A stretch of DNA of 62,511 nucleotides, counting the filler, from Basidiobolus ranarum (lineage: Eukaryota): NCBI GenBank assembly GCA_040143965.1. It is 40 parts of 40 records of this genome, joined end to end, with 100 filler letters (N's around TTAATTAATTAA, not from the genome) between each part and the next. Parts side by side here need not be neighbours in the genome. Positions count along the whole stretch, not along the records: positions 6,285 to 7,754 come from JASJQH010011961.1; 39 more parts are not named here. One strand, written 5' to 3'. Position numbers and translations under genes: made by a program. Positions 6,285 through 57,833 of this stretch are shown here, piece after piece. The notes below the pieces were generated by a model, which saw nothing but the letters and a program-made list of their open reading frames with translations, was not told the origin of the DNA and made no database searches. Positions within the stretch are counted from its first letter, which is position 1. Every line of letters starts with the position of its first letter.

Positions 6285-6438
6285 TCCAAAATCTTTTGGT
6301 CGCAAACACGATCTGAGTCGCCATCTGGCTACAGTACATAAAGGTGAAAGGCCTCACCAATGCCCTAGCTGTCAAAAGAATTTCTCAAGAAAAGACGGCT
6401 TGCATCGACACCTGATCAAAGGGTGTTCCAGCACTTGA
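6285..6438 (+). CDS. C2H2 zinc-finger transcription factor, C-terminal fragment
   Basis: PKSFGRKHDLSRHLATVHKGERPHQCPSCQKNFSRKDGLHRHLIKGCSST*; tandem C2H2 fingers with GERP linker. Confidence 0.9.
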
Positions 6439-6869
6439 CGGTCTTGAATTCAAACCATCTTATTCTTACTATGTGAAGTAGTCTTAGTGTTTTGTCTGAT
6501 TGTCTTATATTTTGGTTAGCTCTTGTATTTGTTCTAGTATCTTTTTTCGTATAGCGTTTTCCTAATTTTGACCAACTTTTCTGTTCCTCCGTGCACTGGT
6601 ATTTTGGTGTGTATTCGTACTTGACATGTATATGTATTTTATTGTAATTTCCTTTGCTTTGCTTTTCTTTGACAACACATGCTACTTCGTATTTTGCTTT
6701 ATAGTGTGCACAAATCGCTTTGGATCTCGATTGTTTTCTGCAATGTGATATTAATAATACATCAAAAATAGTCCATATATCTGATGGAGGAGTGCTATAC
6801 GATTGTAAACATTCGTTCAGTATGGTGCGGCATATACAGCACTGAGTGAGGATGATCAAGCCGAAATCA

Positions 6870-7754
6870 TTCAGGTTTTCATCTTGTTGCAAGGCTTCCT
6901 TCAGATCTTCTATAACATAGTCCTCCTTGGTGCTATCAAAGTGTTTGGGCGTTGGTTTGTAAACGACCACGTCAGCAGAGTAACCATCAGTTTTTATAAG
7001 GTTTGCAAAAACATTTTGTGCGTGATGACGCCTACTTTCTTTCTGCTCTCTAAAACTACAATGTGTGTTAATTACATACCCTTATACATTGTTATTTGAT
7101 GACACTACCTTTTAAAATTCAGTTTCGAAAAGTCAAACACTCAAGAACATATCTTGGTTATCATTGAATGCTGAGGATACTTTTTTGAAGCCTGTTGTGA
7201 AAGCCTTTAGGCCTGTAGGCGTAATGGAGATGAACCTGAACTTGAAGGAAGGCTCTGATGTCAAAGCGAACATTCTTGGTAAATCGTCTTGCTCATTGCT
7301 TTTATCGGGCTTTTCTGTCTTTTGGTACTACAATTTGTAGAAGAAGTTCATCACAAACTGCTTCAACAAGCTTCCTGTGCCCTGCGGATAAGGGATTTTT
7401 TTGTTCTGGCCAACTGTATTCAAGTCCACAAACTTTTTTGTAGCAGTATTCTTCTGTAATAGTCCTTCTCTCTCTCATGTTAAACTAATAAAGATAAATG
7501 TTAGCATAGAAGAGATGGGATTATCAAAGTAACATGATTTACGCACCCCCTTTGGCAGTATTGCCTTGAATTTTCGAATGAAAAAGGTACACAATCTTTC
7601 AAATAATTCAACAATATGATTTGTGTATGTTGTAGCTGTTTCAACACATGCTGGCGAAAGACATCAACTGTAGCCATTCACCAGTGAAGCAGTATATAAT
7701 ACATCATGTCCATTACTAAAACTCTCCCAACAGGCCAACAAGTCATCAGGGACT
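6870..7754 (-). pseudogene. Fanzor1-like (eukaryotic TnpB homologue) nuclease gene remnant with two introns; RuvC region missing
   Basis: Spliced translation: PDDLLACWESFS..GYS*CLSPACVETATTYTNHIVELFER / YCYKKVCG..WP..LPRMFAL..EPSFKFRFISI..MF..VFDFSKL / VFANLIKTDGYSADVVVYK; introns 7546-7485 and 7108-7056 are GT-AG and keep frame; one stop (7664-7666) and two frameshifts. Confidence 0.75.
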
Positions 7755-7854
7755 NNNNNNNNNNNNNNNNNNNNNNNNNNNNNNNNNNNNNNNNNNNNTT
7801 AATTAATTAANNNNNNNNNNNNNNNNNNNNNNNNNNNNNNNNNNNNNNNNNNNN

Positions 7855-14131: not shown

Positions 14132-14792
14132 CTTTGCTGTCACTTTTGATGATGGACCAATAGAATACACTGGAAAACTTCTTGACGCTTTGAAAGCCAA
14201 GAAGGTTAAAGTGACATTCTTCGTGGTTGGTGAAAGTAAAGAATTTCTTTATATGTCTGGTTGAATTTGATTCATTATCTCAACGTCCTCTTTGTGTCTT
14301 TTAGCTCTTCTTGAAGAACAAAACCGTAAATACCTCAAGCGTGCCTATGATGAAGGTCATCACATCGCTTCCCACACCTATACCCACATCAGTCTTTCCA
14401 AATCTTCTGATGATGTTATTCGTTCCGAGATGCAAAAGACTTCGGATGCTATTTTTAAGGTCATTGGTAAGCGTCCCCAATACATGCGTCCTCCTTATGG
14501 TGAATACAATGCCAAGTCACTTGCTATCATGAAGGATATGGGCTACAAAGTCATCTACTGGGATGTTGACACTCTTGACTGGCAGCACAAGAACTCTAAG
14601 CAGACTCTCAAAGTCTACAAGGATGTTCTTGCCAAGGCCAATGCTAAGAATGATCGCTTCATTTCCCTTCAACATGATATTCAATCGAGTACCATTGATG
14701 TTGCTTCACAAATCTTGACTTCAGTCATTAAGGCTGGATTCAAGATAACCACAGTTCCTGACTGCTTGGGAGATACTGGATTGTACTTCTAA
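14132..14792 (+). CDS. CE4/NodB polysaccharide (chitin) deacetylase, 5'-truncated; intron 14236-14304
   Basis: TFDDGP, HTYTH, RPPYG, DTLDW and LQHD motifs all intact; GT-AG intron restores frame. Confidence 0.95.
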
Positions 14793-15600: not shown

Positions 15601-15700
15601 NNNNNNNNNNNNNNNNNNNNNNNNNNNNNNNNNNNNNNNNNNNNTTAATTAATTAANNNNNNNNNNNNNNNNNNNNNNNNNNNNNNNNNNNNNNNNNNNN

Positions 15701-17168
15701 GGGCATTTGGTTTTGATATAGACTGCAGTTGAGACAGATTCAGCCCAATATTGGTAATCTAACTTTTGATCATGTAATATTGATCTTGACATCTCCACTA
15801 TGGTCCTATTAGCACATTCTGCAACTCCATATTGCTGTGGAGTATAAGCTACAGTAGTTTGTTGCTTAATTCCATATTTTGAGCAAAAACTAGTAAAGTC
15901 TTTAGAGCAGTATTCCCCACCATCATCACTCTTTAGTACCCTTGTTTTTTGTGCTAATTCTTTCTCTACCATGGCTATGCCATGCTTGAACACAGCTAAG
16001 ACTTGAGATTTGGAATTGAAAAGGAATACCAAAGTATATCTTTTTTTGTCATCAATAAAGGTCATAAAGTACCTTTTCCAACCTAATGAGATATCTTTCA
16101 TGGGCCTACATAGGTCAGAATGAATCAGGGCAAAATTCTGAGTTGAATTGATCTCTCCAGAGCTTGAAATGGTTCTCTGTGTTGTTTTCCATACATGCAT
16201 TCTTAACACAGATCCAATTTAATGATATTTTCAATTTCTAAGTCTGAAGCAAGCCGATTTCAGATCATTTGGGTCAACTGTTGTTCTGCAATATAGCCTA
16301 GTCCTTTATGCCATGTTCTATTGCTTATTTCACTGGTTTTGGCCATGTTTGCATGCTCAGAATGCAATTTGTTGATTTCCGGCTTGTATATGCTTTGAGT
16401 TTTGACTTCAGTAGCTAATTTGGTGTTGTTCTAATCTGTGATAGTGCATCAAGCTTTGCTAAAAACAAAATTTAGTCCTTGAGTTGTGGCTTGGCTTACT
16501 GAGAGTATATTCTTGGCTATATTTGGAACATAGAGTATATCATCCAATTTTGCAGAAGGTGAAGCTGAATTTTGGTCCAAATTAAGCACAACTGTGCCCT
16601 TACTAGCTACATCTAGTGCATAGTCATCACCCAAGTAGACTTACATTGTTTTAATTGGTTTTAAGCTGAACACCAATCTTTCTTGTTTGACATATGTGGG
16701 GAAGCCTCTGAATCTATGTATTTATATACCTTTCTGAGTCTTTTTTAGTGGTTACTGATAGGGCAGACACAAACAGATGATCCCTATCAGTGCTTACTTG
16801 ATTTGCTTGTTGCAATTTTAGCTTTTTGGCAGAAATCCTTTTTCTGCAGTCTTTGATTAAATGGCCTGGTTTCTTGCAATAGTTGCAGATGATTAATTTC
16901 CTATTAAGGACAACATTATTGAGGCATGTTGGATGTCTTACAGCTCCAAAAAGAGCCTGTTCTGTGTTATGTTGCTGAAAAATAGATCTCCTTAAACTCC
17001 TCATTCAAAAGCCTAGCATCAACATATTCCTTTGTTAATAGCTCTGATCTTGATCTTAGGGCAATTATGAGGTTCCCAAACTTGTCTGACAGACTCCCAA
17101 GTAGTGTCATGACTAGGTCATCTTCATCTAATAGTGTCCAATGGATGCAAGCTGACCTGCTATTGTTT
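15701..17168 (-). mobile_element. Ty1/copia gag-pol fragment (same family as 1-1472)
   Basis: CNYCKKPGHLIKDC knuckle; IHSDLC..KRYFMTFIDD..SDDGGEY..TPQQ.GVAE.ANRTIVEM. Confidence 0.96.
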
Positions 17169-23539: not shown

Positions 23540-25006
23540 AGTTGACATTTATAGTTTTGTCAAGATGTAAACAAACTAACATGTAGAATATGTTAAGGAA
23601 GGTCCCAGGAACATGTGTGCAAAGTTTGGGGCTTCTAGCACAAGTTTGAAGAATCTATATATCTGAGAACTTACAAGTTGGTAAATATATTCCAAGTAAA
23701 TGCTGATTGAGATTGATTGATAATATCTTAGTGAGTTATAAGATAACTAATTACTAAGCTATATATGACTAGATAGGTGTTTAGGCAATGCTAATTTCAA
23801 CACTGTCCCTCAACTAAATAGTCATATAAACTAATCCTAATAAAGGTCTAAATTTCTCAAATTTCTGTCTAGCTAATGGTTTGGTTAATATACAAGCAAT
23901 CATGTCTTCTTTAGAACAATAGGTTAAGTCAATAAACTGATTCTCTATAGTCTCACAAATGCAGTGATGCTTAATATCAATGTGTTTGTTTATATTATGA
24001 AACATGGGATTTTTAGCTAATTTGATACAACTTTGATTAGCTTGAAATATTGCAGTTGCTGAATTTTGAGAATAACCCAAATCTGTTAAGAGTTTTCTTA
24101 ACCATATTGCTTCTTTTGTTGCTTTACAGGCAGCCATGTATTCAGCTTCTGCTGTAGAAAGTGCTACAGTAGGTTGTTTCTTTGAATTCCAAGAAATAGC
24201 TCCATTACAGCAAAAAACTAACTATCCTTTTGTAGATCTCCTGTCTTCAATATCTCTTCACCAAATTGCATCTGAATATCCCATCAGATCAAAATTTGAT
24301 CCAGAATATGTGTATTTTAAGCATAGATCCACAGTACCTTTCAAATATCTGAAAATCCGCTTAACTGCTATGATTTGATCAGATCCATAATTTTGAAGAT
24401 ATTGGCACATAACTCCCACAGAATATGCAATATCTGGCCGTGTTCCAACCATGATATACATCAAACTACCAACCATAGATTGATAAGGAAATTTCTGGCT
24501 TTCATTTGAATCCAAGAACGTCTGATTTGAGCCATTTTTGGTCAAGTTAAGATTTGTCTCCATTGGGGTAGATACTGGATTACATTCTTCCATTTTAAAC
24601 TTCTTTAGTATATCTAGGATATACTTAGACTGGTTTAAAGTTATTGTTTTGGTAGTTCTATCTATCTTAATTTGGATTCCAAGATAGTACGTCAGTTCAC
24701 CAAGATCAGTCATTTTGAATTCGGCAGATAAGCTGGATTTGGTGTTCTCCAAAGTCTTCAAGTCATTGGTTGCTATAATAAGATCATCTACATATAAGGC
24801 TAATAAAACTGGGTTTGTCTTATCTGGCCTGAAGTAGATACTATAGTCAGCATTACTCTTTTGGAATTTGAGTGTTTCTAAAAAAGTGTCTATCTTGCTA
24901 TTCCAAGCTCTTGGAGATTGTTTTAAGCCATAGAGTGTTTTCCAGAGTCTGCAAACTTTTTTAGGGTTTTCTGGGTCCACAAATCCATCTGGCTGGTCCA
25001 TATAGA
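23540..25006 (-). mobile_element. Ty1/copia RT-RNase H, PPT (23803-23815) and 3' LTR family A (23540-23802); relatively young copy
   Basis: 247-aa open frame with LYVDDL, TRPDIAYSV, GYSDA; STAEAEYMA, KHIDIK; several CpGs retained. Confidence 0.97.
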
Positions 25007-37952: not shown

Positions 37953-38233
37953 TGTTGAAAGTCTGGTGACTTGTGGTACATGCAGTAATTCCAAAAGAGG
38001 AAAATATGGAGCATGGTGACTGCATCTGAACACAAAGGCTAAGGCAAATCAGTTGCTTGTATAGCTGAAATGCCAAAGTATCATACATTAACAGACTAGG
38101 TTAAGGTCCCCTAGCAACATAGGCATAGCACACAAGGACTGGTAGCTCAGTGGTTAGAGCACCTGCTAAAGTGAAGGAGATGCCAGGTTCAAATCCTGGC
38201 CAGACCAATATTTCTCCCTAAATAATTTCAACA
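37953..38233 (+). mobile_element. 281-bp solo LTR containing a tRNA-like sequence (Helenus-type TRIM-like)
   Basis: TGTTGAAA...TTTCAACA inverted ends; TSD ATGGA at 37948-37952 and 38234-38238; removing it restores the host RT frame. Confidence 0.9.
38136..38207 (+). ncRNA. tRNA-like (pseudo-tRNA) with Pol III A and B boxes inside the LTR
   Basis: GGACTGG/CCAGACC acceptor (one mismatch), TAGCTCAGTGG A-box, CCAGG-TTCAAAT-CCTGG T arm; anticodon arm degenerate. Confidence 0.85.
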
Positions 38234-39191
38234 ATGGAGAGTCCAAACACAAAGTTTTGGAGTGCTGCAATGGCAGAGGAGTATCAGTCATTCGTAGATA
38301 ACCAAACTTGGACTCTGGTTAGGTTACCTGATGACCATAAATCAATTGGATGCAAATGGGTTTTTCAAGTTAAACAGCAAGTTGATGGATATGCAGAAAG
38401 ATATAAAGCCAGACTTGTGGCTAGAGGATACTCTCAAAAGGAAGGATTGGACTACATTGAAACATATGCTCCTGTAGGAAAGTTTAATTCCATAAGAACT
38501 GTACTAGCAGTAGCAGCAAAGCACAGCTTGAAAATCCACCAAATGGATGTTAAAACTGCTTTTTTGAATGGGGACTTAGAAGAGGATATATTTGTGGATG
38601 CCCCAGATGGTTTTGTGAATCCTGAGCACCCCGAGGATGTGTGCAAGCTGCAAAAGCCACTTTATGGACTTAAACAATCATCCAGTGCCTGGTATACTAA
38701 GATAGAAACATGCTTGGAATAACTTGATTTCCAAAAAAGTACCAAGGATTTTGGGATCTACTTTAAGGCAGATACAAGCAGTAAGGTGATACTTGCCTTT
38801 TATGTGGGTGATCTGATTATAGCTACCAATAATGATGAAGCTCTCAGGAACACCAAAAGAGATTTATCAGTCCAATTTAGGATGGCCAATTTAGGTAAAC
38901 TTACATATTTTTTAGGCCTGCAGATCCATACAGATTTATTGAGCAAACCTATTACTCTGAATCTATCTAAATACATCTCAGACATTATCAGATGTTCCAG
39001 AATAGAGAATTGTAAGCCAGTAGCAACTCCCATGGATCCTGGTGTGAAACTAGTCAAAAGTCCCATGAAAAATGATGAAACTTGGCCAAATNNNNNNNNN
39101 NNNNNNNNNNNNNNNNNNNNNNNNNNNNNNNNNNNTTAATTAATTAANNNNNNNNNNNNNNNNNNNNNNNNNNNNNNNNNNNNNNNNNNNN

Positions 39192-45443: not shown

Positions 45444-46905
45444 CTCAAGCTTGAATCTGTACCACCATTTCTCTATCAGCAATGATCTCTTGTTTTATAA
45501 GAAGTGACTTTACATTTGAGACCACACTTCCACACTCAAAATCACGCAGGAAAGACATTACTCACCACTAGCTGGACACTTTGGTGTTGCCAAATCATAT
45601 ATGTTGGTATCCAGGGATTATTGGTGGCCCAAAATGTTTGCATTTGTCAAGACTTATGTTTTGACCTGTGATACTTGTGTTTGAGTGAAGACTCCAAGAC
45701 ATCAGCCCTATGGCCTCCTACAGCCTCTTCCAATTCCTGATCAGCAGTGGAAATCCATATCCCTGGTTTCATAATTGATCTACCCTTGTCTGCCAAATAT
45801 GACTCAATTCTGGTAATTGTTGACTGTCTAACAAAGATGGCCCACTTTGTGTGCTGCAACAAGTCAATTGATGAAAAACAAACAGCAGATTTGGTAACTC
45901 AAAACATCTTGCACCTACATGGACTTGCTGAAACTATCATCTGTGACCAAAGACCTCAGTTTGCTTCCAAATTCTGGAAAAGTCTCCTCCATACCTTGGG
46001 TATCTCTGCCAATCTCTCCACTGCTTTCCATCCCCAATCTGATGGCCAAACAGAAAGAGTCAATCAAGTTTTGGAACAATATTTCCAATGCACTATCAAC
46101 TATAATCAGGATAATTGGACACAACTCTTATCATACCTCAACAGAGCAAACTCCTTTCTTTGCAAATTATGGATTCCATCCTTGTTTCACAATTTACTAA
46201 CCAACCAATCTACCTTGCCCTGCTGCCTCAGACCATGCCACTTTCCTTGAGGACATCCATAAACAATTGATATCTGAGTTGGAGCATGCTCAATCCCAAT
46301 ACAAGAATTTTGCTGATAAGAAAAGAAAGCTGAGTCCAGATCACAAGCCAGGAGATCATGTTTGGCTACTCCGGAAAAATATCAAAACCACTAGACCTTG
46401 TGATAAACTTGATCATAAAAGACTAGGGCCTTTTAAGATTATTAAGCAAATCAGTTCAGTAGCCTTCTGCCTTTAACTCCCAGCCTATTTCAAAGTCCAC
46501 AATGTATTCCATGTGTCTCTCTTAGAGCCACATGCAAGAAAACCTTCCAGGGCCAATTGATTGACCCACCCCCAGCAATCCAAGTTGAGGAACACCCTGA
46601 CTATGAAGTTAGCTTAATTCTAGATTCCAGAATTTATCAACGTAAATTGCAATATTTAGTGGACTGGAAGGGATATTCAACAAATGATCAATCATGGGAG
46701 CCAGCAACAAATCTTTCCAATTCCAAGGAACTTTGCCAGGAGTTTTATGAAGCCTACCCAGAAAAACCTGGCCCTATGATGTCTGGAAGCCATCACTAAA
46801 GAAGGGGATACTGTCATGATTCCAATCTCAGCATACCAATCCACTGCAAAAAGAACTCTTCTATTATTAGATTATGACATCATATCTGCTGTGCCATCCC
46901 TTCTC
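45444..46905 (+). mobile_element. Ty3/gypsy chromovirus: integrase, chromodomain, PPT and 3' LTR start (46812)
   Basis: AGHFG..K...YWWP; HPQSDGQTERVNQ; GPFKI; YEVSLILDSR..LQYLVDWKGY..SWEP; AAAGAAGGGGATAC|TGTCATG. Confidence 0.97.
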
Positions 46906-53455: not shown

Positions 53456-54060
53456 TTGTCAGCGTATGGGGTTAATCCTAGTCTGCAATTGCTAGGTTCA
53501 CAAATCCCTTAACTGCAACTAGTAATTAACCTCAATCGAAATTGTTGCTTTTATGTTGTGATTCAATATTAATAAACTTAAGCTTAATAAATGATCAAGA
53601 ATGATAGAAACAGATTTTGTAAGGGATCTTGAAATAATTATAAAGAAGTTGAATAAATTCCGTGTATGCCAATCAAAAGAATTAATGGAAACATATAAAT
53701 AGTTTTGTTCTGCATCTTCTATTCAACTGGACGCATATATTTGATGGCCATACTACCGCAAACTATTTTTGAATGTTTAGAATATTTTGATGTTACCTAT
53801 GTGAATTATCGGCTGATCGATGCAAGGAACACTTCAAGACATGACTCCGTGCAATACATCAAACCTGTGTTAGAGTAACGTTCTCAAAGAAGATCAATAT
53901 TGAATTTTCGTAACCTGTCACTCAACATGATGATATATTAGTACCAAGTTACGCCAAGAACTCAGTAGAAATAGTTACTAAAAAAGAAATACTAGGATTT
54001 GGTATATAAGTGAACACAGGAATCTATTAATATGACATCTTGGTTTTATATCGATTAATC

Positions 54061-54713
54061 ATGGTTGCCATTAAGCTTCTGACCTCTATCTCTTTCTTGG
54101 CTACCGTTTCGATGGCTTGGGTTTGGCCTTTACCTGCGAAGATGGATGTTGGTCATAACATCATTCGCTTGAGCAGAAACGAACTCGATATCTCCATCAA
54201 AACTCCAGCTGGCGCTGATATCCTTGAAAGAGCTGTCCACCGCTACAAGAAGTTGATCTTCACCAAGGGTGAGTTCAGCTCCCTCCTTAACACAGTTGAG
54301 AAGACTGTGTTCCCCATTCCTACTACTTCTGTCCCCGTTCATCAGCTCGCTCCCAAGGGTAAGTACCCTACACTGACTGGACTCAGTATTCAGGTCAGTG
54401 GCCACAACACCAAACTCAATCTTGATACCGATGAGTCGTACACTATCGATGTTCCTGCACGTGGTGGCAAGGCTACCATTAAGGCCAAGAGTGTGTACGG
54501 AGCTCTCCGCGGACTCGAGTCATTCTCCCAATTGGTCAAGTGGACTGCTGAGGCCAATCAGTACCGCATTCCATTCGCTCCAGTCTCGATCTCAGACAAA
54601 CCAGTCTTCGTCCATCGTGGTGTGATGATTGATTCATCCCGCAACTTCCTCAAGATCGAAGATATCAAGCGTACTCTCGATGCTATGTCTTACAACAAGC
54701 TCAATGTTCTTCA
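54061..54713 (+). CDS. GH20 beta-N-acetylhexosaminidase, N-terminal fragment (secreted)
   Basis: Signal peptide, VWPLP, TDESYTI, YGALRGLESFSQL, ISDKP.F.HRGVMIDSSRNF..LDAMSYNKLNVL. Confidence 0.96.
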
Positions 54714-56373: not shown

Positions 56374-57833
56374 GTGTTTCAAATAACCGGTTGTCACATT
56401 TGACTGCCTGGTGGATAGCATCAGTCAAGGTCACTGGGTCAGCCATAGTGAGTAAAAGATCCTTAATATTTTCTTGGAGTCCATATTGGAATTGGTTGAT
56501 CAGGGCAGATTCTCCCCAATTGAGATCACAGGCAAGAAGGCAAAATTCTGCAGCATAAGTTGATGCAGGTTTTGACCCTTGTTTAAGTGCACAGAGCTTG
56601 GTGGCTGAAGTTCTTTCTTTATCTGCATTTCCAAATGTGGCTTCCAGTTCAGCAAGAAAGGCAAGGAAGTTTGAAAGAAGTGGAGATTGACTTTCCATTA
56701 AAGGAGCAAACCAAGACAGAGCTGTTCCTGATAAGAGTGTTCCCACTAAGCCTACTTTTGTTTGGTCAGAGGGGTAGCAATGGGGATGTAACTGGATGAT
56801 AAGCTTTACTTGGTTAATAAAACCACAATAGTTTTGGCAAGTGCCATCAAACTTATTTGGTAGGGAGATTTTGGGTTCAGGAGTTGGAATTGCAGTATAG
56901 TTGGGTGGAGCTGGATTCTGTACTTGAGCAATGGAAGTACAAAGTTCTTGATTTTCTTGCTGAAGCTGAGTCAGGGCTTGCATAACATCTTCCATTGTGG
57001 GGGCTGGTGTAGACATAATACTTACTATGTTGGGAGGGGAAGTTTTAAAACCACAAGTTTCTCTAGGAATGATAATCACAATGCAATGTCCAACTTTCTG
57101 TTGAAGAAATGATTGGCGCCTTGACAAAAGAATATGCTGGTATCAACGTCCTTTGATCTTGATCAAGTACTAAAGCTTCTTTGATCAAAAACAACTGTAA
57201 ACTCAACCAGTAGTGTCTTGACAAGGATGCACTTAGAGCAATTATCCAAAGGTGGAAGGTACCTTTGCCTTAGCAGGGAAGCTTGGGAAAGATAGGGAAT
57301 AAGAGGGAAGCCGACCTTGGGGGGTTTCAAGGTTGGAGAGCAGGGATGGAGAGAAGTCTACAGGCAAGTATAAGTAGTCTGATCAAACTGTCACAATAAG
57401 GAACTGGACAAGGACTGGGAACAACAACAAGAGGCTAGAAGGCAGGAGAGTACTTGGGTGTAGACCACAAGACAAGACAAGACTGGACAAGGAAGATACT
57501 TTGGCAAGAATCCTTATTGTTAACAGGTGTTGATCAGACTGAGGTCTGATCAAGGAATACACGGGGCTTATATAGATATTGCATGGCAAAACATAATATA
57601 CTTAATAGGGAATATACTGTGGCAAGTTCAAGAGTTGGGGTGTTGGGGACTACAAGGACCAATACAAAGTGGGATGATGTAAGAACAATGTAAGGATGAT
57701 CGGGTGGCCTTTGATGGAAGGACTTGGCGGAAATACACTATGTGTGGGATGACATGATTGGTTAGGTTTCATGGAATGTTCCAAAGAACATGCCTTCCAT
57801 ATAAGGTAATCTGGATGAACTGACACCAGATTG
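56374..57833 (-). mobile_element. Chromovirus 5' LTR (57389-57833), leader and gag (ATG 57016)
   Basis: EPKISLP.KFDG, LLSGTALSWF, LKQG...STYAAEF..L.W.ESALI.QF..GL; LTR ends TGTGACA and overlaps the LTR copies at 11110-11214 and 49931-50026. Confidence 0.95.

What the first reader, a model, noticed from the sequence alone, without database searches (positions are those of the whole stretch)
6870..7754. Hidden intron-containing Fanzor1-like (RNA-guided nuclease family) gene remnant
Seen: on the minus strand, three segments separated by canonical introns (7546-7485 GTGCGT..CTAAC..TAG, phase 0; 7108-7056 GTAGTG..TTAAC..TAG, phase 2) splice in frame to VPDDLLACWESFS..GYS*CLSPACVETATTYTNHIVELFER..YCYKKVCGLEYSWP..LPRMFALTSEPSFKFRFISI..MF..VFDFSKL..VFANLIKTDGYSADVVVYK. 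Knowledge (from memory, not a search): the ordered motifs 'Y.N.I.E.FE.R', 'LPRLF.L.P.PS..WRFI.I', 'FDF.KL' and 'F...I.TDG.S' are typical of the REC/WED region of Fanzor1 proteins in early-diverging fungi, just before the RuvC-I 'DPG'. Here the similarity stops about 35 codons after TDG and no DPG follows; there is also a stop and two frameshifts, so this copy is dead. Inference: the genome carries or carried a spliced Fanzor family, and intact copies with an omega-RNA and host transposon may exist elsewhere. The ORF track shows only the tail.
Basis: partly seen in the sequence, partly recalled or inferred. Interest (0 to 1): 0.85.

Follow-up and report, generated by a model that had tools for sequence, protein, structure and literature searches.

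The report
Dead Fanzor1 gene fragment, fungal contig
This is a broken, intron-containing leftover of the front half of a Fanzor1 gene (a transposon-borne RNA-guided DNA cutter already known from early-diverging fungi); it has lost its cutting domain, so it is an ordinary relic and not a working system.

Summary
The window is 40 short contigs joined by N linkers. The finding lies on one 1470-bp contig (6285-7754), so its 5' end is cut by the assembly.

On the minus strand, 7753 to about 6896 matches the REC/WED half of a Mucorales protein family. A profile built from six full-length members alone gives E 2.8e-19.

Those full-length members carry DPG, DE[FY]xTS, a C4 zinc ribbon (PF07282) and WQRD. 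Their sequence profile hits the solved SpuFz1 structure, and a predicted structure matches only Fanzor structures strongly (Z 18-22).

Both proposed introns splice in frame at positions that fit the relatives.

The copy is dead. It has a TGA where relatives have Q, a deletion of about 24-29 codons with a frame change, and a 2-nt deletion. No RuvC or zinc-ribbon sequence appears in any frame.

After the homology ends, a 174-codon stop-free tail continues with no detectable relative. This is unexplained.

All 16 organism-named relatives in the main search are Mucorales, and the nearest is a Phycomyces copy (66-68% identity). The contig's own gene model is labelled Basidiobolus ranarum, so contamination or horizontal transfer cannot be excluded.

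Intact copies, an omega RNA and transposon ends could not be tested. Low interest.

The parts
7547..7753 (-). Exon piece A, the REC-domain part of a Fanzor1-like protein. It is cut at its 5' side by the contig end at 7754.
   Evidence: Matches profile A5 nodes 180-247 with E 1.1e-23. It is 66% identical to Phycomyces P0003 over 53 aa and aligns to P0064 residues 182-242.
7664..7666 (-). In-frame TGA stop inside piece A.
   Evidence: Sequence read directly. Relatives have Q here, as in GYSQC.
7485..7546 (-). Intron 1: 62 nt, phase 0, GTGCGT...CTAAC...TAG.
   Evidence: Sequence read directly. Removing it joins ..AILPKG to FNMRERRTITEEYCY.. with no gap against the profile (A ends at node 247, B starts at node 255, with 8 unaligned residues between). 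The unspliced ORF P0004 loses homology at the same point..SVLPDE|VCLSS...
7338..7484 (-). Exon piece B, REC part (EEYCYKKVCGLEYSWPE...CDELL). The open frame runs on to 7305.
   Evidence: Matches profile A5 nodes 255-297 with E 1.1e-10. It is 41-43% identical to P0007 and P0005.
7310..7337 (-). Junction of an internal deletion of about 24-29 codons with a change of frame. The block ..VTL..L.A.PGSYIP.L.YIL.. is lost.
   Evidence: Profile nodes 298-334 are unmatched, and only 28 nt lie between the aligned ends of B and C. P0005 residues 53-76 and P0007 residues 133-170 have no counterpart.
7142..7327 (-). Exon piece C (..DDLPRMFALTSEPSFKFRFISITPTGLKAFT..DNQDMFL).
   Evidence: Matches profile A5 nodes 335-389 with E 5e-16. 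It is 68% identical to P0003 and 65% to P0002.
7109..7141 (-). A lone A at 7141 (a 2-nt loss from one codon), then VFDFSKLNFK plus AG in a third frame. This block aligns to the WED part of SpuFz1.
   Evidence: Sequence read directly. Relatives read MFF[E/K/R][V/I]F[D/N][F/L]SKL. Profile nodes 377-391 align to SpuFz1 residues 301-317 (offset 394).
7056..7108 (-). Intron 2: 53 nt, phase 2, GTAGTG...TTAAC...TAG.
   Evidence: Sequence read directly. The spliced junction ..KLNFK-S-FREQ.. matches the spliced model P0007..KLKLK-S-INEQ... The representatives of two Mycotypha clusters (P0010, 14 members; P0027, 28 members) and P0071 end at ..KL.[FY][KR]R. The unspliced ORFs P0002, P0003 and P0005 lose homology at the same point.
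6896..7055 (-). Homologous start of exon 3, a WED beta-hairpin holding the TDG motif (..NVFANLIKTDGYSADVVVYK..DYVIEDLKE). This is the last stretch with Fanzor similarity.
   Evidence: hhalign to profile A3 gives E 5.9e-5 over 26 columns. blastp to P0064 residues 414-459 gives E 5e-6. TDG aligns to SpuFz1 T328-G330.
6416..6895 (-). Tail of the same open frame: 159 codons beyond the last aligned residue, ending at the stop at 6416-6418. It shows no similarity to Fanzor or to anything else found. Its origin is unexplained.
   Evidence: The 174 codons tested (6419-6940) have 0 stops, against 13 and 11 in the other two frames; 0 of 5000 dinucleotide shuffles are stop-free. There is no profile similarity, no Pfam match, no atlas neighbour and no metagenome relative.
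6285..6438 (+). 3' end of a convergent C2H2 zinc-finger gene, cut by the contig start. It overlaps the tail ORF's end by 23 nt. It is not part of the Fanzor remnant, but it shows that no room is left for the nuclease half.
   Evidence: Pfam zf-C2H2 scores 32.8 bits (cut-off 25.2) and zf-C2H2_4 scores 32.3 bits (cut-off 27).

Best explanation
The minus strand of contig 6285-7754 holds a mutationally inactivated, 3'-truncated copy of a Fanzor1 gene. Fanzor1 is the eukaryotic TnpB-like, omega-RNA-guided RuvC endonuclease carried by DNA transposons.

[quoted passage not shown] It is split by two short spliceosomal introns at positions that fit the relatives' gene models.

The copy carries a premature TGA, an out-of-frame deletion of about 24-29 codons and a 2-nt deletion. 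Similarity to Fanzor stops about 8 residues before the place of the RuvC-I Asp (DPG). No RuvC, zinc-ribbon (TNB) or omega-RNA region is on the contig, because the space is taken by unrelated sequence and a convergent C2H2 gene.

The copy therefore cannot bind a guide RNA productively or cut DNA, and it is a relic.

Shown: the homology, the introns, the defects and the absence of the nuclease half. Inferred: it descends from an active transposon-borne Fanzor1 like those of Mucorales. The activity of that family is itself inferred from motifs and fold, not assayed.
For: 1. phmmer with relative P0003 over 1.84 billion representatives gave 30 proteins at E <= 1e-3. Among them were P0023 (690 aa) and P0026 (744 aa).
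2. Those two, together with P0032, P0064, P0065 and P0067, are the 6 of 94 held proteins that carry DPG + DE[FY]xTS + W[QH]RD. PF07282 scores 31.5 bits (above its cut-off) in P0023 and 23.8 bits (below it) in P0026.
3. A profile of these six proteins alone hits the contig's minus frame at E 2.8e-19, nodes 188-452 of 752. None of the other 39 contigs scores below E 1.
4. 29 of 30 non-self relatives hit the contig by tblastn at E <= 1.
5. Profile A1 against PDB sequences finds only SpuFz1 (8GKH and 6 further entries) at E 1.9e-5.
6. The AlphaFold2 model of P0064 has pLDDT 73.9 overall and mostly above 85 over residues 100-430. All 7 Foldseek hits at E <= 1e-3 are Fanzor chains. All 7 VIA-align hits at Z >= 8 are Fanzor chains (Z 18.0-21.9, 380-415 residues aligned, rmsd 3.5-4.0); the next hit is Cas12f at Z 6.7.
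7. The defects were read directly and placed against relatives.
8. The nuclease half is absent by four tests: a six-frame profile search, Smith-Waterman with shuffles, hhalign, and a C-terminal profile in which the real tail scored -1.4 bits and 790 of 951 reported shuffles scored at least as high.
Against: - The frame downstream of the last homologous residue stays open for 159 more codons (174 tested; 0 of 5000 shuffles do so). That is odd for an old relic and has no explanation.
- An NDFG at 6871-6860 lies 40 residues after the D of TDG, close to the 42-46 residues at which relatives have DPG. A K/R-rich stretch resembles the P0026 spacer (score 49, 0 of 200 shuffles; but blastp E 0.19). 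A very diverged rather than deleted RuvC part is therefore not strictly excluded.
- The stop and the frame changes could not be checked against reads.
- The public gene model for this contig (P0001, 270 aa, 'partial') treats pieces C and D as coding.
Confidence: 0.9

Rival explanations
1. The identity is the same (a Fanzor1 relic) but the origin is foreign. Either the 1470-bp contig is Mucorales DNA, possibly Phycomycetaceae-like, that contaminates the Basidiobolus ranarum assembly, or a Mucorales-type Fanzor1-bearing transposon entered Basidiobolus horizontally.
For: All 30 hits were looked up. Of these, 16 carry an organism name, and all 16 are Mucorales genera (lineages checked for 5 of them). 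The other 14 are unnamed.

The only non-Mucorales name is the window's own model, KAK9663163.1 from Basidiobolus ranarum. That species sits in a different phylum.

The fragment and Phycomyces P0003 are each other's nearest relatives, at 66% identity (piece A) and 68% (piece C). P0003's next-best relatives are at 47% and 61%, and other Phycomyces copies are at 38-41%.
Against: - No sequenced Mucorales copy is near-identical, so a known-genome contaminant is not shown.
- The contig's G+C (37.8%) lies within the range of the other 39 contigs (32-42%).
- Searches were seeded from this subfamily and reach only 30-35 proteins, so copies in other phyla may have been missed.
- Old paralogous subfamilies with differential loss would give the same pattern.
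Confidence: 0.3
2. The locus is an exapted or chimeric gene. A nuclease-less piece of Fanzor1 (part of WED) is fused to a new 160-170-residue C-terminal region and is kept as a host gene, as annotated in K7432_018120.
For: The exon-3 frame is 212 codons long and stop-free. Its 174-codon non-homologous tail is stop-free where 0 of 5000 shuffles are. A public annotation calls pieces C and D a CDS. It is the fifth-longest stop-free frame in the 62.5-kb window.
Against: - The upstream exons are broken. What remains would be half a WED domain and is unlikely to fold.
- The tail has no relative.
- The language-model recognition value is 1417, below the 2300 that 91 in 100 proteins of known families reach.
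- No start codon context or expression data are available.
Confidence: 0.05
3. The gene is intact in the organism. The stop, the frame changes and the loss of the 3' half are sequencing or assembly artefacts, such as a chimeric short contig.
For: The contig is one of many ~1.47-kb contigs of a highly fragmented assembly. The reads could not be inspected.
Against: Three independent lesions plus a missing block of about 24-29 codons are more than typical errors. TGA is at least two substitutions away from either Gln codon. The close relative P0003 in Phycomyces is also degenerate.
Confidence: 0.04
4. The resemblance to Fanzor1 is chance or low-complexity similarity.
For: Pfam finds nothing in the pieces themselves.
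Against: Profile E-values run from 1e-10 to 1e-48 in the correct order along the protein, across three frames joined exactly by two canonical introns.
Confidence: 0.01

Closest known systems
Fanzor1 of Mucorales: families PBl, MCi and ROr of Bao & Jurka 2013 (PMC3627910, passages read), and the proteins P0023/P0064/P0065/P0067 (Mucor flavus), P0026 (Mucor lusitanicus) and P0032 (Parasitella parasitica)
   Same: The REC/WED blocks are collinear (ATxYTNxIVExFE, EYCY..C....WP, LPRxFxLxPxPSxxxRF, FDFxKL, (S/T)DG.S). Both intron positions fit the relatives' gene models. Identity is 36-44% in piece A to the full-length proteins and 66-68% to the degenerate Phycomyces copy P0003.
   Different: This copy lacks everything from DPG onward (RuvC-I/II/III and the zinc ribbon). 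It has a stop, an internal deletion and a 2-nt loss, and its gene model is labelled Basidiobolus, not Mucorales. Which of the 2013 families it corresponds to could not be checked, because their sequences are in supplementary files that are closed.
SpuFz1, Spizellomyces punctatus Fanzor1 (PDB 8GKH; Saito et al. 2023, PMC10432273, passages read)
   Same: The family profile aligns FDFxKL...TDG...DPG to SpuFz1 residues 301-385 (ITTDGAS, IDPN) at E 1.9e-5. The model of relative P0064, residues 97-582, superposes on SpuFz1 residues 18-497 with Z 19-21. The paper also reports partial Fz genes beside full-length ones (42 loci, 19 full-length).
   Different: About 16% sequence identity to the Mucorales family. 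SpuFz1 is encoded by a single ORF, whereas this family has introns. This fragment has none of the catalytic residues D383/E541/D606.
TnpB of IS200/IS605 and IS607, and Cas12f
   Same: They are the ancestral fold class. The relative's model also aligns to Cas12f at Z 6.5-6.7.
   Different: The relation is remote. Those proteins are prokaryotic, have no introns and have a much smaller REC domain. Nothing of the shared RuvC core survives in this fragment.

Membership tests
Fanzor1 (eukaryotic TnpB-like omega-RNA-guided nuclease) | Sequence homology of the REC/WED half to proteins that are demonstrably Fanzor1 | tested here: met
   A profile of six full-length PF07282/DPG/WQRD proteins hits the contig at E 2.8e-19. 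The per-piece E-values are 1e-23, 1e-10, 5e-16 and 7e-6, in collinear order.
Fanzor1 (eukaryotic TnpB-like omega-RNA-guided nuclease) | RuvC-I aspartate (DPG in this family; D383 in SpuFz1) | tested here: not met
   No match beyond profile node 436-452 in any of six frames. hhalign stops at column 432. The tail scores like its shuffles. An NDFG at the expected distance is not statistically supported.
Fanzor1 (eukaryotic TnpB-like omega-RNA-guided nuclease) | RuvC-II Glu ([DE]E[FY]xTS), C4 zinc ribbon (PF07282) and RuvC-III Asp (RD), as in Bao & Jurka's motif D-X-[TS][TS]-X-X-C4-X-RD | tested here: not met
   These are absent from the contig in all frames. The space is occupied by unrelated sequence and a convergent C2H2 gene.
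Fanzor1 (eukaryotic TnpB-like omega-RNA-guided nuclease) | Full-length relatives have the Fanzor fold | tested here: met
   The model of P0064 gives Foldseek E 1e-15 to 1e-12 against 7 Fanzor chains, and no other chain below E 0.1. VIA-align gives Z 18.0-21.9 against the same chains.
Fanzor1 (eukaryotic TnpB-like omega-RNA-guided nuclease) | Omega RNA encoded at or beyond the 3' end of the ORF | not testable with these tools
   The 3' half of the gene is missing. Rfam gives only a sub-threshold chance hit. No RNA data are available.
Fanzor1 (eukaryotic TnpB-like omega-RNA-guided nuclease) | Residence inside a DNA transposon (terminal inverted repeats, target-site duplication) | tested here: inconclusive
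   No terminal-repeat-like structure lies within the 1470 bp, and no repeat is shared with the other 39 contigs. The contig is too short to hold a whole element.

The most novel reading that the evidence does not exclude
A Mucorales-type, intron-bearing Fanzor1 element reached Basidiobolus, a different fungal phylum, by horizontal transfer. After it lost its nuclease half, the remaining WED-coding exon was fused in frame to a new 160-170-codon sequence that has been kept open. On this reading, K7432_018120 is a young chimeric gene built on a Fanzor relic and not plain junk.
Probability: 0.06. Interest if true: 0.5.

Novelty: new member of a known kind. Interest (0 to 1): 0.22.

Why it matters
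It shows that a reader working from raw sequence can recognise the poorly annotated, Pfam-invisible front half of Fanzor1. The public records call this model and its relatives 'hypothetical protein', and one is named 'C2H2-type zinc finger transcription factor'.

It also adds a Fanzor1 trace to an assembly labelled Basidiobolus ranarum. The full-text library held no paper with both 'Fanzor' and 'Basidiobolus'.

Beyond that it is ordinary. Fanzor1 copies, partial copies and intron-bearing Fanzor genes in fungi are in print (PMC3627910, PMC10432273, PMC10530073). This copy has no nuclease and no guide RNA, and it has no use as an editor.

The only points of wider interest are the Mucorales-like affinity, which could mean contamination or transposon transfer between phyla, and the unexplained open tail.

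Tried and rejected

- Whole-genome search: no genome is held.

**Searches that found nothing**
- Earlier findings of this scan: nothing by sequence, place or words.
- Metagenome scans: the first request failed for lack of a conserved stretch. A smaller alignment gave 593 pattern matches with no relative. The exon-3 ORF gave 197 pattern matches with no relative.
- Other contigs of the window: no second copy by tblastn, profile search or blastn.
- Repeats: only short two-copy chance matches, and no terminal inverted repeats.
- The Yoon et al. preprint (10.1101/2023.08.09.552727) held none of six search terms on fungal phyla or introns.

**Weak hits judged to be chance**
- Pfam on the pieces gave nothing except bHLH_INO2 at 16.7-17.6 bits, below its 23.4 cut-off. 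It lies inside the Fanzor-homologous block.
- Rfam gave one hit, the fluoride riboswitch at 14.5 bits against a threshold of 34.

**Leads on the missing nuclease half and the tail**
- Two eyeballed vestiges of the DPG motif were not supported by any statistical test. They were 'LDHPHSVLY' in another frame (6866-6795 ORF) and 'NDFG' in the ORF frame.
- In one search, only 1 of 12 protein-by-frame comparisons beat all 200 shuffles. It was a K/R-rich low-complexity stretch, and blastp gave it E 0.19.
- ESM atlas for the tail: no usable hit, recognition 1417.
- Single-sequence AlphaFold2 of the exon-3 ORF: pLDDT 33, uninformative.

**Coincidence set aside**
- The name 'C2H2 zinc finger' on Phycomyces P0003 and the C2H2 gene on this contig look linked, but Pfam finds no C2H2 domain in P0003.
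Full report
**Setting**

The 62,511-base window is not one locus. It is 40 contigs of 1472 to 1459 bp, sorted by size and joined by N44-TTAATTAATTAA-N44 linkers.

The finding lies on the fifth contig, 6285-7754 (1470 bp, 37.8% G+C). Its upper limit at 7754 is therefore an assembly end.

A word-based protein search returned the contig's own public gene model. It is P0001, a 270-aa protein named 'hypothetical protein K7432_018120, partial [Basidiobolus ranarum]', on a contig of 1470 bp.

The other contigs that I sampled are mostly LTR-retrotransposon pieces (RVT_2, rve, Ty3 gag), plus a few host genes such as a GH20 hexosaminidase and a polysaccharide deacetylase.

**The observation**

| Part | Coordinates | Content |
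|---|---|---|
| Piece A | 7753-7547 | VPDDLLACWESFS..GYS[TGA]CLSPACVETATTYTNHIVELFER..ILPKG; TGA at 7666-7664 |
| Intron 1 | 7546-7485 | 62 nt, GTGCGT...CTAAC...TAG, phase 0 |
| Piece B | from 7484 | FNMRERRTITEEYCYKKVCGLEYSWPEQ.. |
| Piece C | 7327-7136, another frame | ..DDLPRMFALTSEPSFKFRFISITPTGLKAFT..DNQDMFLSV |
| Short block | 7140-7111, third frame | VFDFSKLNFK |
| Intron 2 | 7108-7056 | 53 nt, GTAGTG...TTAAC...TAG, phase 2 |
| Exon 3 | from 7055 | S-FREQKESRRHHAQNVFANLIKTDGYSADVVVYK.. |

Pfam sees nothing in these pieces. That is expected for the N-terminal half of this family.

**What it is related to**

- Piece C found three proteins among 13 candidates: the contig's own model, an unnamed 148-aa ORF (P0002, 65% identity), and a 437-aa Phycomyces blakesleeanus model (P0003, 68%). 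P0003 also covers pieces A and B.
- phmmer with P0003 against 1.84 billion representatives gave 30 proteins at E <= 1e-3. Most are short fragments, but three are long: P0009 (521 aa), P0023 (690 aa) and P0026 (744 aa).
- Of the 10 hits that I scanned with Pfam, 2 hit PF07282 (Cas12f1-like TNB, the former OrfB_Zn_ribbon). P0023 scored 31.5 bits, above the 26.3 cut-off. P0026 scored 23.8 bits, below it.
- Two further word-based searches added P0032 (Parasitella; PF07282 precomputed) and 35 proteins at E <= 1e-5, of which 4 carry PF07282.
- Among the 94 proteins then held, 6 have DPG, [DE]E[FY]xTS and W[QH]RD in order: P0023, P0026, P0032, P0064, P0065 and P0067. This is the motif D...[TS][TS]..C4...RD that Bao and Jurka used to define Fanzor/TnpB (PMC3627910, passages read).
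- In the alignment, the (S/T)DG block is followed by DPG 45-46 residues later.

**Link between the fragment and these nucleases**

- A profile of 12 relatives (A1) matches the contig's minus frames at E 8.7e-48 (nodes 173-436 of 693) and 1.1e-9 (nodes 242-292). The plus frames score nothing.
- A profile built only from the six full-length nuclease-bearing proteins hits the same frame at E 2.8e-19 (nodes 188-452 of 752) in a search of 240 frames from all 40 contigs. No other contig scores below E 1.
- Piece by piece against profile A5, the matches are collinear:

| Piece | Profile nodes | E-value |
|---|---|---|
| A | 180-247 | 1.1e-23 |
| B | 255-297 | 1.1e-10 |
| C | 335-389 | 5e-16 |
| VFDFSKLNFK | 389-398 | 0.0036 |
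| Exon 3 | 406-442 | 6.8e-6 |

- 29 of 30 non-self relatives hit the contig by tblastn at E <= 1.

**Is the family Fanzor1?**

- Profile A1 searched against all PDB sequences finds one distinct sequence, SpuFz1 (8GKH and six further entries), at E 1.9e-5. The alignment puts the family's FDFxKL...TDG...DPG on SpuFz1's ...ITTDGASVSV...VVIDPN.
- Taking D777 of the MBP-fusion chain as D383, the TDG block is SpuFz1 T328-G330 and the FDFxKL block is about residues 301-317.
- Saito et al. name R291, K312, R315, R317 and Y345 as WED residues, R96 to S269 as REC residues, and D383/E541/D606 as the catalytic site (PMC10432273, passages read).
- An AlphaFold2 model of P0064 (720 aa, 37-row alignment) has mean pLDDT 73.9 and pTM 0.67, with values mostly above 85 between residues 100 and 430.
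- Foldseek gives 7 matches at E <= 1e-3, all Fanzor chains (SpuFz, PpFz, GtFz; E 1.2e-15 to 1.3e-12). The next match has E 0.15.
- VIA-align on 980 chains gives 7 with Z >= 8, the same Fanzor entries (Z 18.0-21.9, 380-415 residues aligned, rmsd 3.5-4.0). Model residues 97-582 lie on SpuFz residues 18-497. The next hit is Cas12f at Z 6.7.
- The fragment corresponds to P0064 residues 182-459.

**Introns**

- Removing intron 1 joins ..FKAILPKG to FNMRERRTITEEYCYKKVCGLEYSWP. This lines up without a gap against, for example, P0010 ..LQNLFPSMVKRDIDEIATKYCYQAICKGEPKWP. The unspliced ORF P0004 loses similarity exactly there..SVLPDE|VCLSS...
- Removing intron 2 gives ..KLNFK-S-FREQ..VFANLIKTDGYSAD. This matches the spliced Rhizopus microsporus model P0007..KLKLK-S-INEQ..VFSNLLRIDGYSAD.
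- The 'partial' Mycotypha models P0010 and P0027, which represent clusters of 14 and 28 members at 90% identity, and P0071 end at ..KL.[FY][KR]R. The unspliced ORFs P0002, P0003 and P0005 run a few unrelated residues past that point and stop. Both intron positions thus fit the relatives' gene models.
- Intron-bearing Fanzor genes are already described (Jiang et al. 2023, PMC10530073, passages read).

**Why this copy is dead**

1. TGA at 7666-7664 stands where relatives have Q (GYSQC).
2. Profile nodes 298-334 have no counterpart between pieces B and C. Only 28 nt separate the aligned ends, against 24 residues in P0005 and 38 in P0007, and the frame changes. This is a deletion of about 24-29 codons that is not a multiple of three.
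3. Between ..DMFL and VFDF.. a single A (7141) stands where relatives have one codon (E, K or R), which is a 2-nt loss.
4. Similarity ends at about 6896, roughly 8 residues before the DPG position of P0064. Four tests find nothing of the nuclease half:
   - The six-frame profile search finds nothing beyond that point.
   - hhalign of the exon-3 ORF against the full-length alignment aligns only 26 columns around TDG (E 5.9e-5).
   - A profile of the C-terminal half scores the tail at -1.4 bits, and 790 of the 951 reported shuffles score at least as high.
   - Of 12 Smith-Waterman comparisons (4 proteins by 3 frames), 1 beat all 200 shuffles. It was a K/R-rich stretch that blastp rates at E 0.19.

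The contig's last 154 bases (6285-6438, plus strand) are the end of a convergent C2H2 zinc-finger gene (zf-C2H2 at 32.8 bits). No room remains for RuvC or the zinc ribbon.

No omega-RNA candidate can be expected. Rfam gives only a chance-level hit, and there are no terminal repeats.

**What remains unexplained**

The exon-3 frame stays open for 212 codons down to the stop at 6418-6416. The 174 codons tested (6419-6940) have no stop, while the other two frames have 13 and 11. None of 5000 dinucleotide-preserving shuffles is stop-free in any of the three frames.

Yet this tail has no relative in any of the following:
- the family
- Pfam
- the ESM atlas (recognition 1417)
- JGI metagenomes
- earlier findings of this scan

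A single-sequence fold was uninformative (pLDDT 33).

An NDFG at 6871-6860 lies 40 residues after the D of TDG, near the spacing of DPG in relatives. No test supports it. I leave it as a possible vestige.

**Origin**

All 30 hits were looked up. Of these, 16 carry organism names: Phycomyces, Spinellus, Rhizopus, Apophysomyces, Mucor, Parasitella, Mycotypha, Cokeromyces and Benjaminiella. All are Mucorales (five lineages checked; the others are Mucorales by my own knowledge). The other 14 are unnamed.

The contig's own model is labelled Basidiobolus ranarum, which belongs to the phylum Basidiobolomycota.

The fragment and Phycomyces P0003 are mutually nearest, at 66% (piece A) and 68% (piece C). 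P0003's next-best relatives reach 47% and 61%, and its paralogues in the same genome reach 38-41%.

This pattern fits three explanations, and I could not separate them:
- contamination of the assembly
- transfer of a transposon between phyla
- old subfamilies with differential loss

**Comparison with what is known, and verdict**

- Fanzor1 has been known in Phycomyces, Mucor and Rhizopus since 2013 (PMC3627910; Table 1 passage).
- Partial copies beside full-length ones are described for S. punctatus (PMC10432273).
- Fanzor1 of Parasitella and Rhizopus is discussed in PMC11423790 (passages read).
- No paper in the library holds both 'Fanzor' and 'Basidiobolus'.

The fragment fails the defining nuclease features. 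It is therefore filed as a relic derived from a Fanzor1 gene, not as a Fanzor1 nuclease.

Its interest score was too high: this is an ordinary dead copy of a known family, with two minor loose ends, the Mucorales-like affinity and the open tail.

Noticed in passing
whole window; linkers at e.g. 7755-7854: The window is a concatenation of 40 size-sorted contigs (1472-1459 bp) joined by N44-TTAATTAATTAA-N44. Neighbouring 'genes' across linkers are not neighbours in the genome.
   Followed up: yes
window 6285-6438 (+): This is the C-terminal end of a C2H2 zinc-finger protein (two fingers; zf-C2H2 at 32.8 bits). It is convergent with the Fanzor relic, and its stop codon region overlaps the end of the relic's open frame by 23 nt.
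   Followed up: partly
window 6419-6940 (-): A 174-codon stop-free, A-rich, Lys-rich reading frame with no detectable relative. 0 of 5000 dinucleotide shuffles are stop-free.
   Followed up: partly
relatives P0023, P0026, P0029, P0032, P0004, P0064 (N-termini): The Mucorales Fanzor1-like proteins begin with a Lys-rich stretch and a CCHC-like knuckle (C..C...GH.S.RS..C). Pfam zf-CCHC matches it only weakly, and only in P0029. This part lies upstream of what the contig preserves.
   Followed up: no
relatives P0010 and P0027 (Mycotypha africana clusters): There are 14 and 28 members at 90% identity or more. Nearly all are from one genome, and two members are labelled Dichotomocladium elegans. The listed members are nearly all 'partial' models, and the two representatives end at the conserved intron. 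This suggests a recently amplified Fanzor1 family whose gene models are systematically truncated by annotation.
   Followed up: no
relative P0003 (Phycomyces blakesleeanus): The public name 'C2H2-type zinc finger transcription factor' looks like a misannotation of a degenerate Fanzor1 copy. Pfam finds no C2H2 domain in it, and its frame departs from the family right after ..HIVELFE.
   Followed up: partly
window 24261-25004 (-), 38222-38719 (+), 15700-16218 (-), 45741-46247 (+), 56375-57142 (-): Copia-type reverse transcriptase (RVT_2), integrase (rve) and Ty3-type gag fragments. Many of the short contigs are LTR-retrotransposon pieces.
   Followed up: partly
window 54031-54711 (+) and 14271-14789 (+): Host-gene fragments: a GH20 beta-hexosaminidase N-terminal part and a polysaccharide (chitin-type) deacetylase domain.
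   Followed up: no
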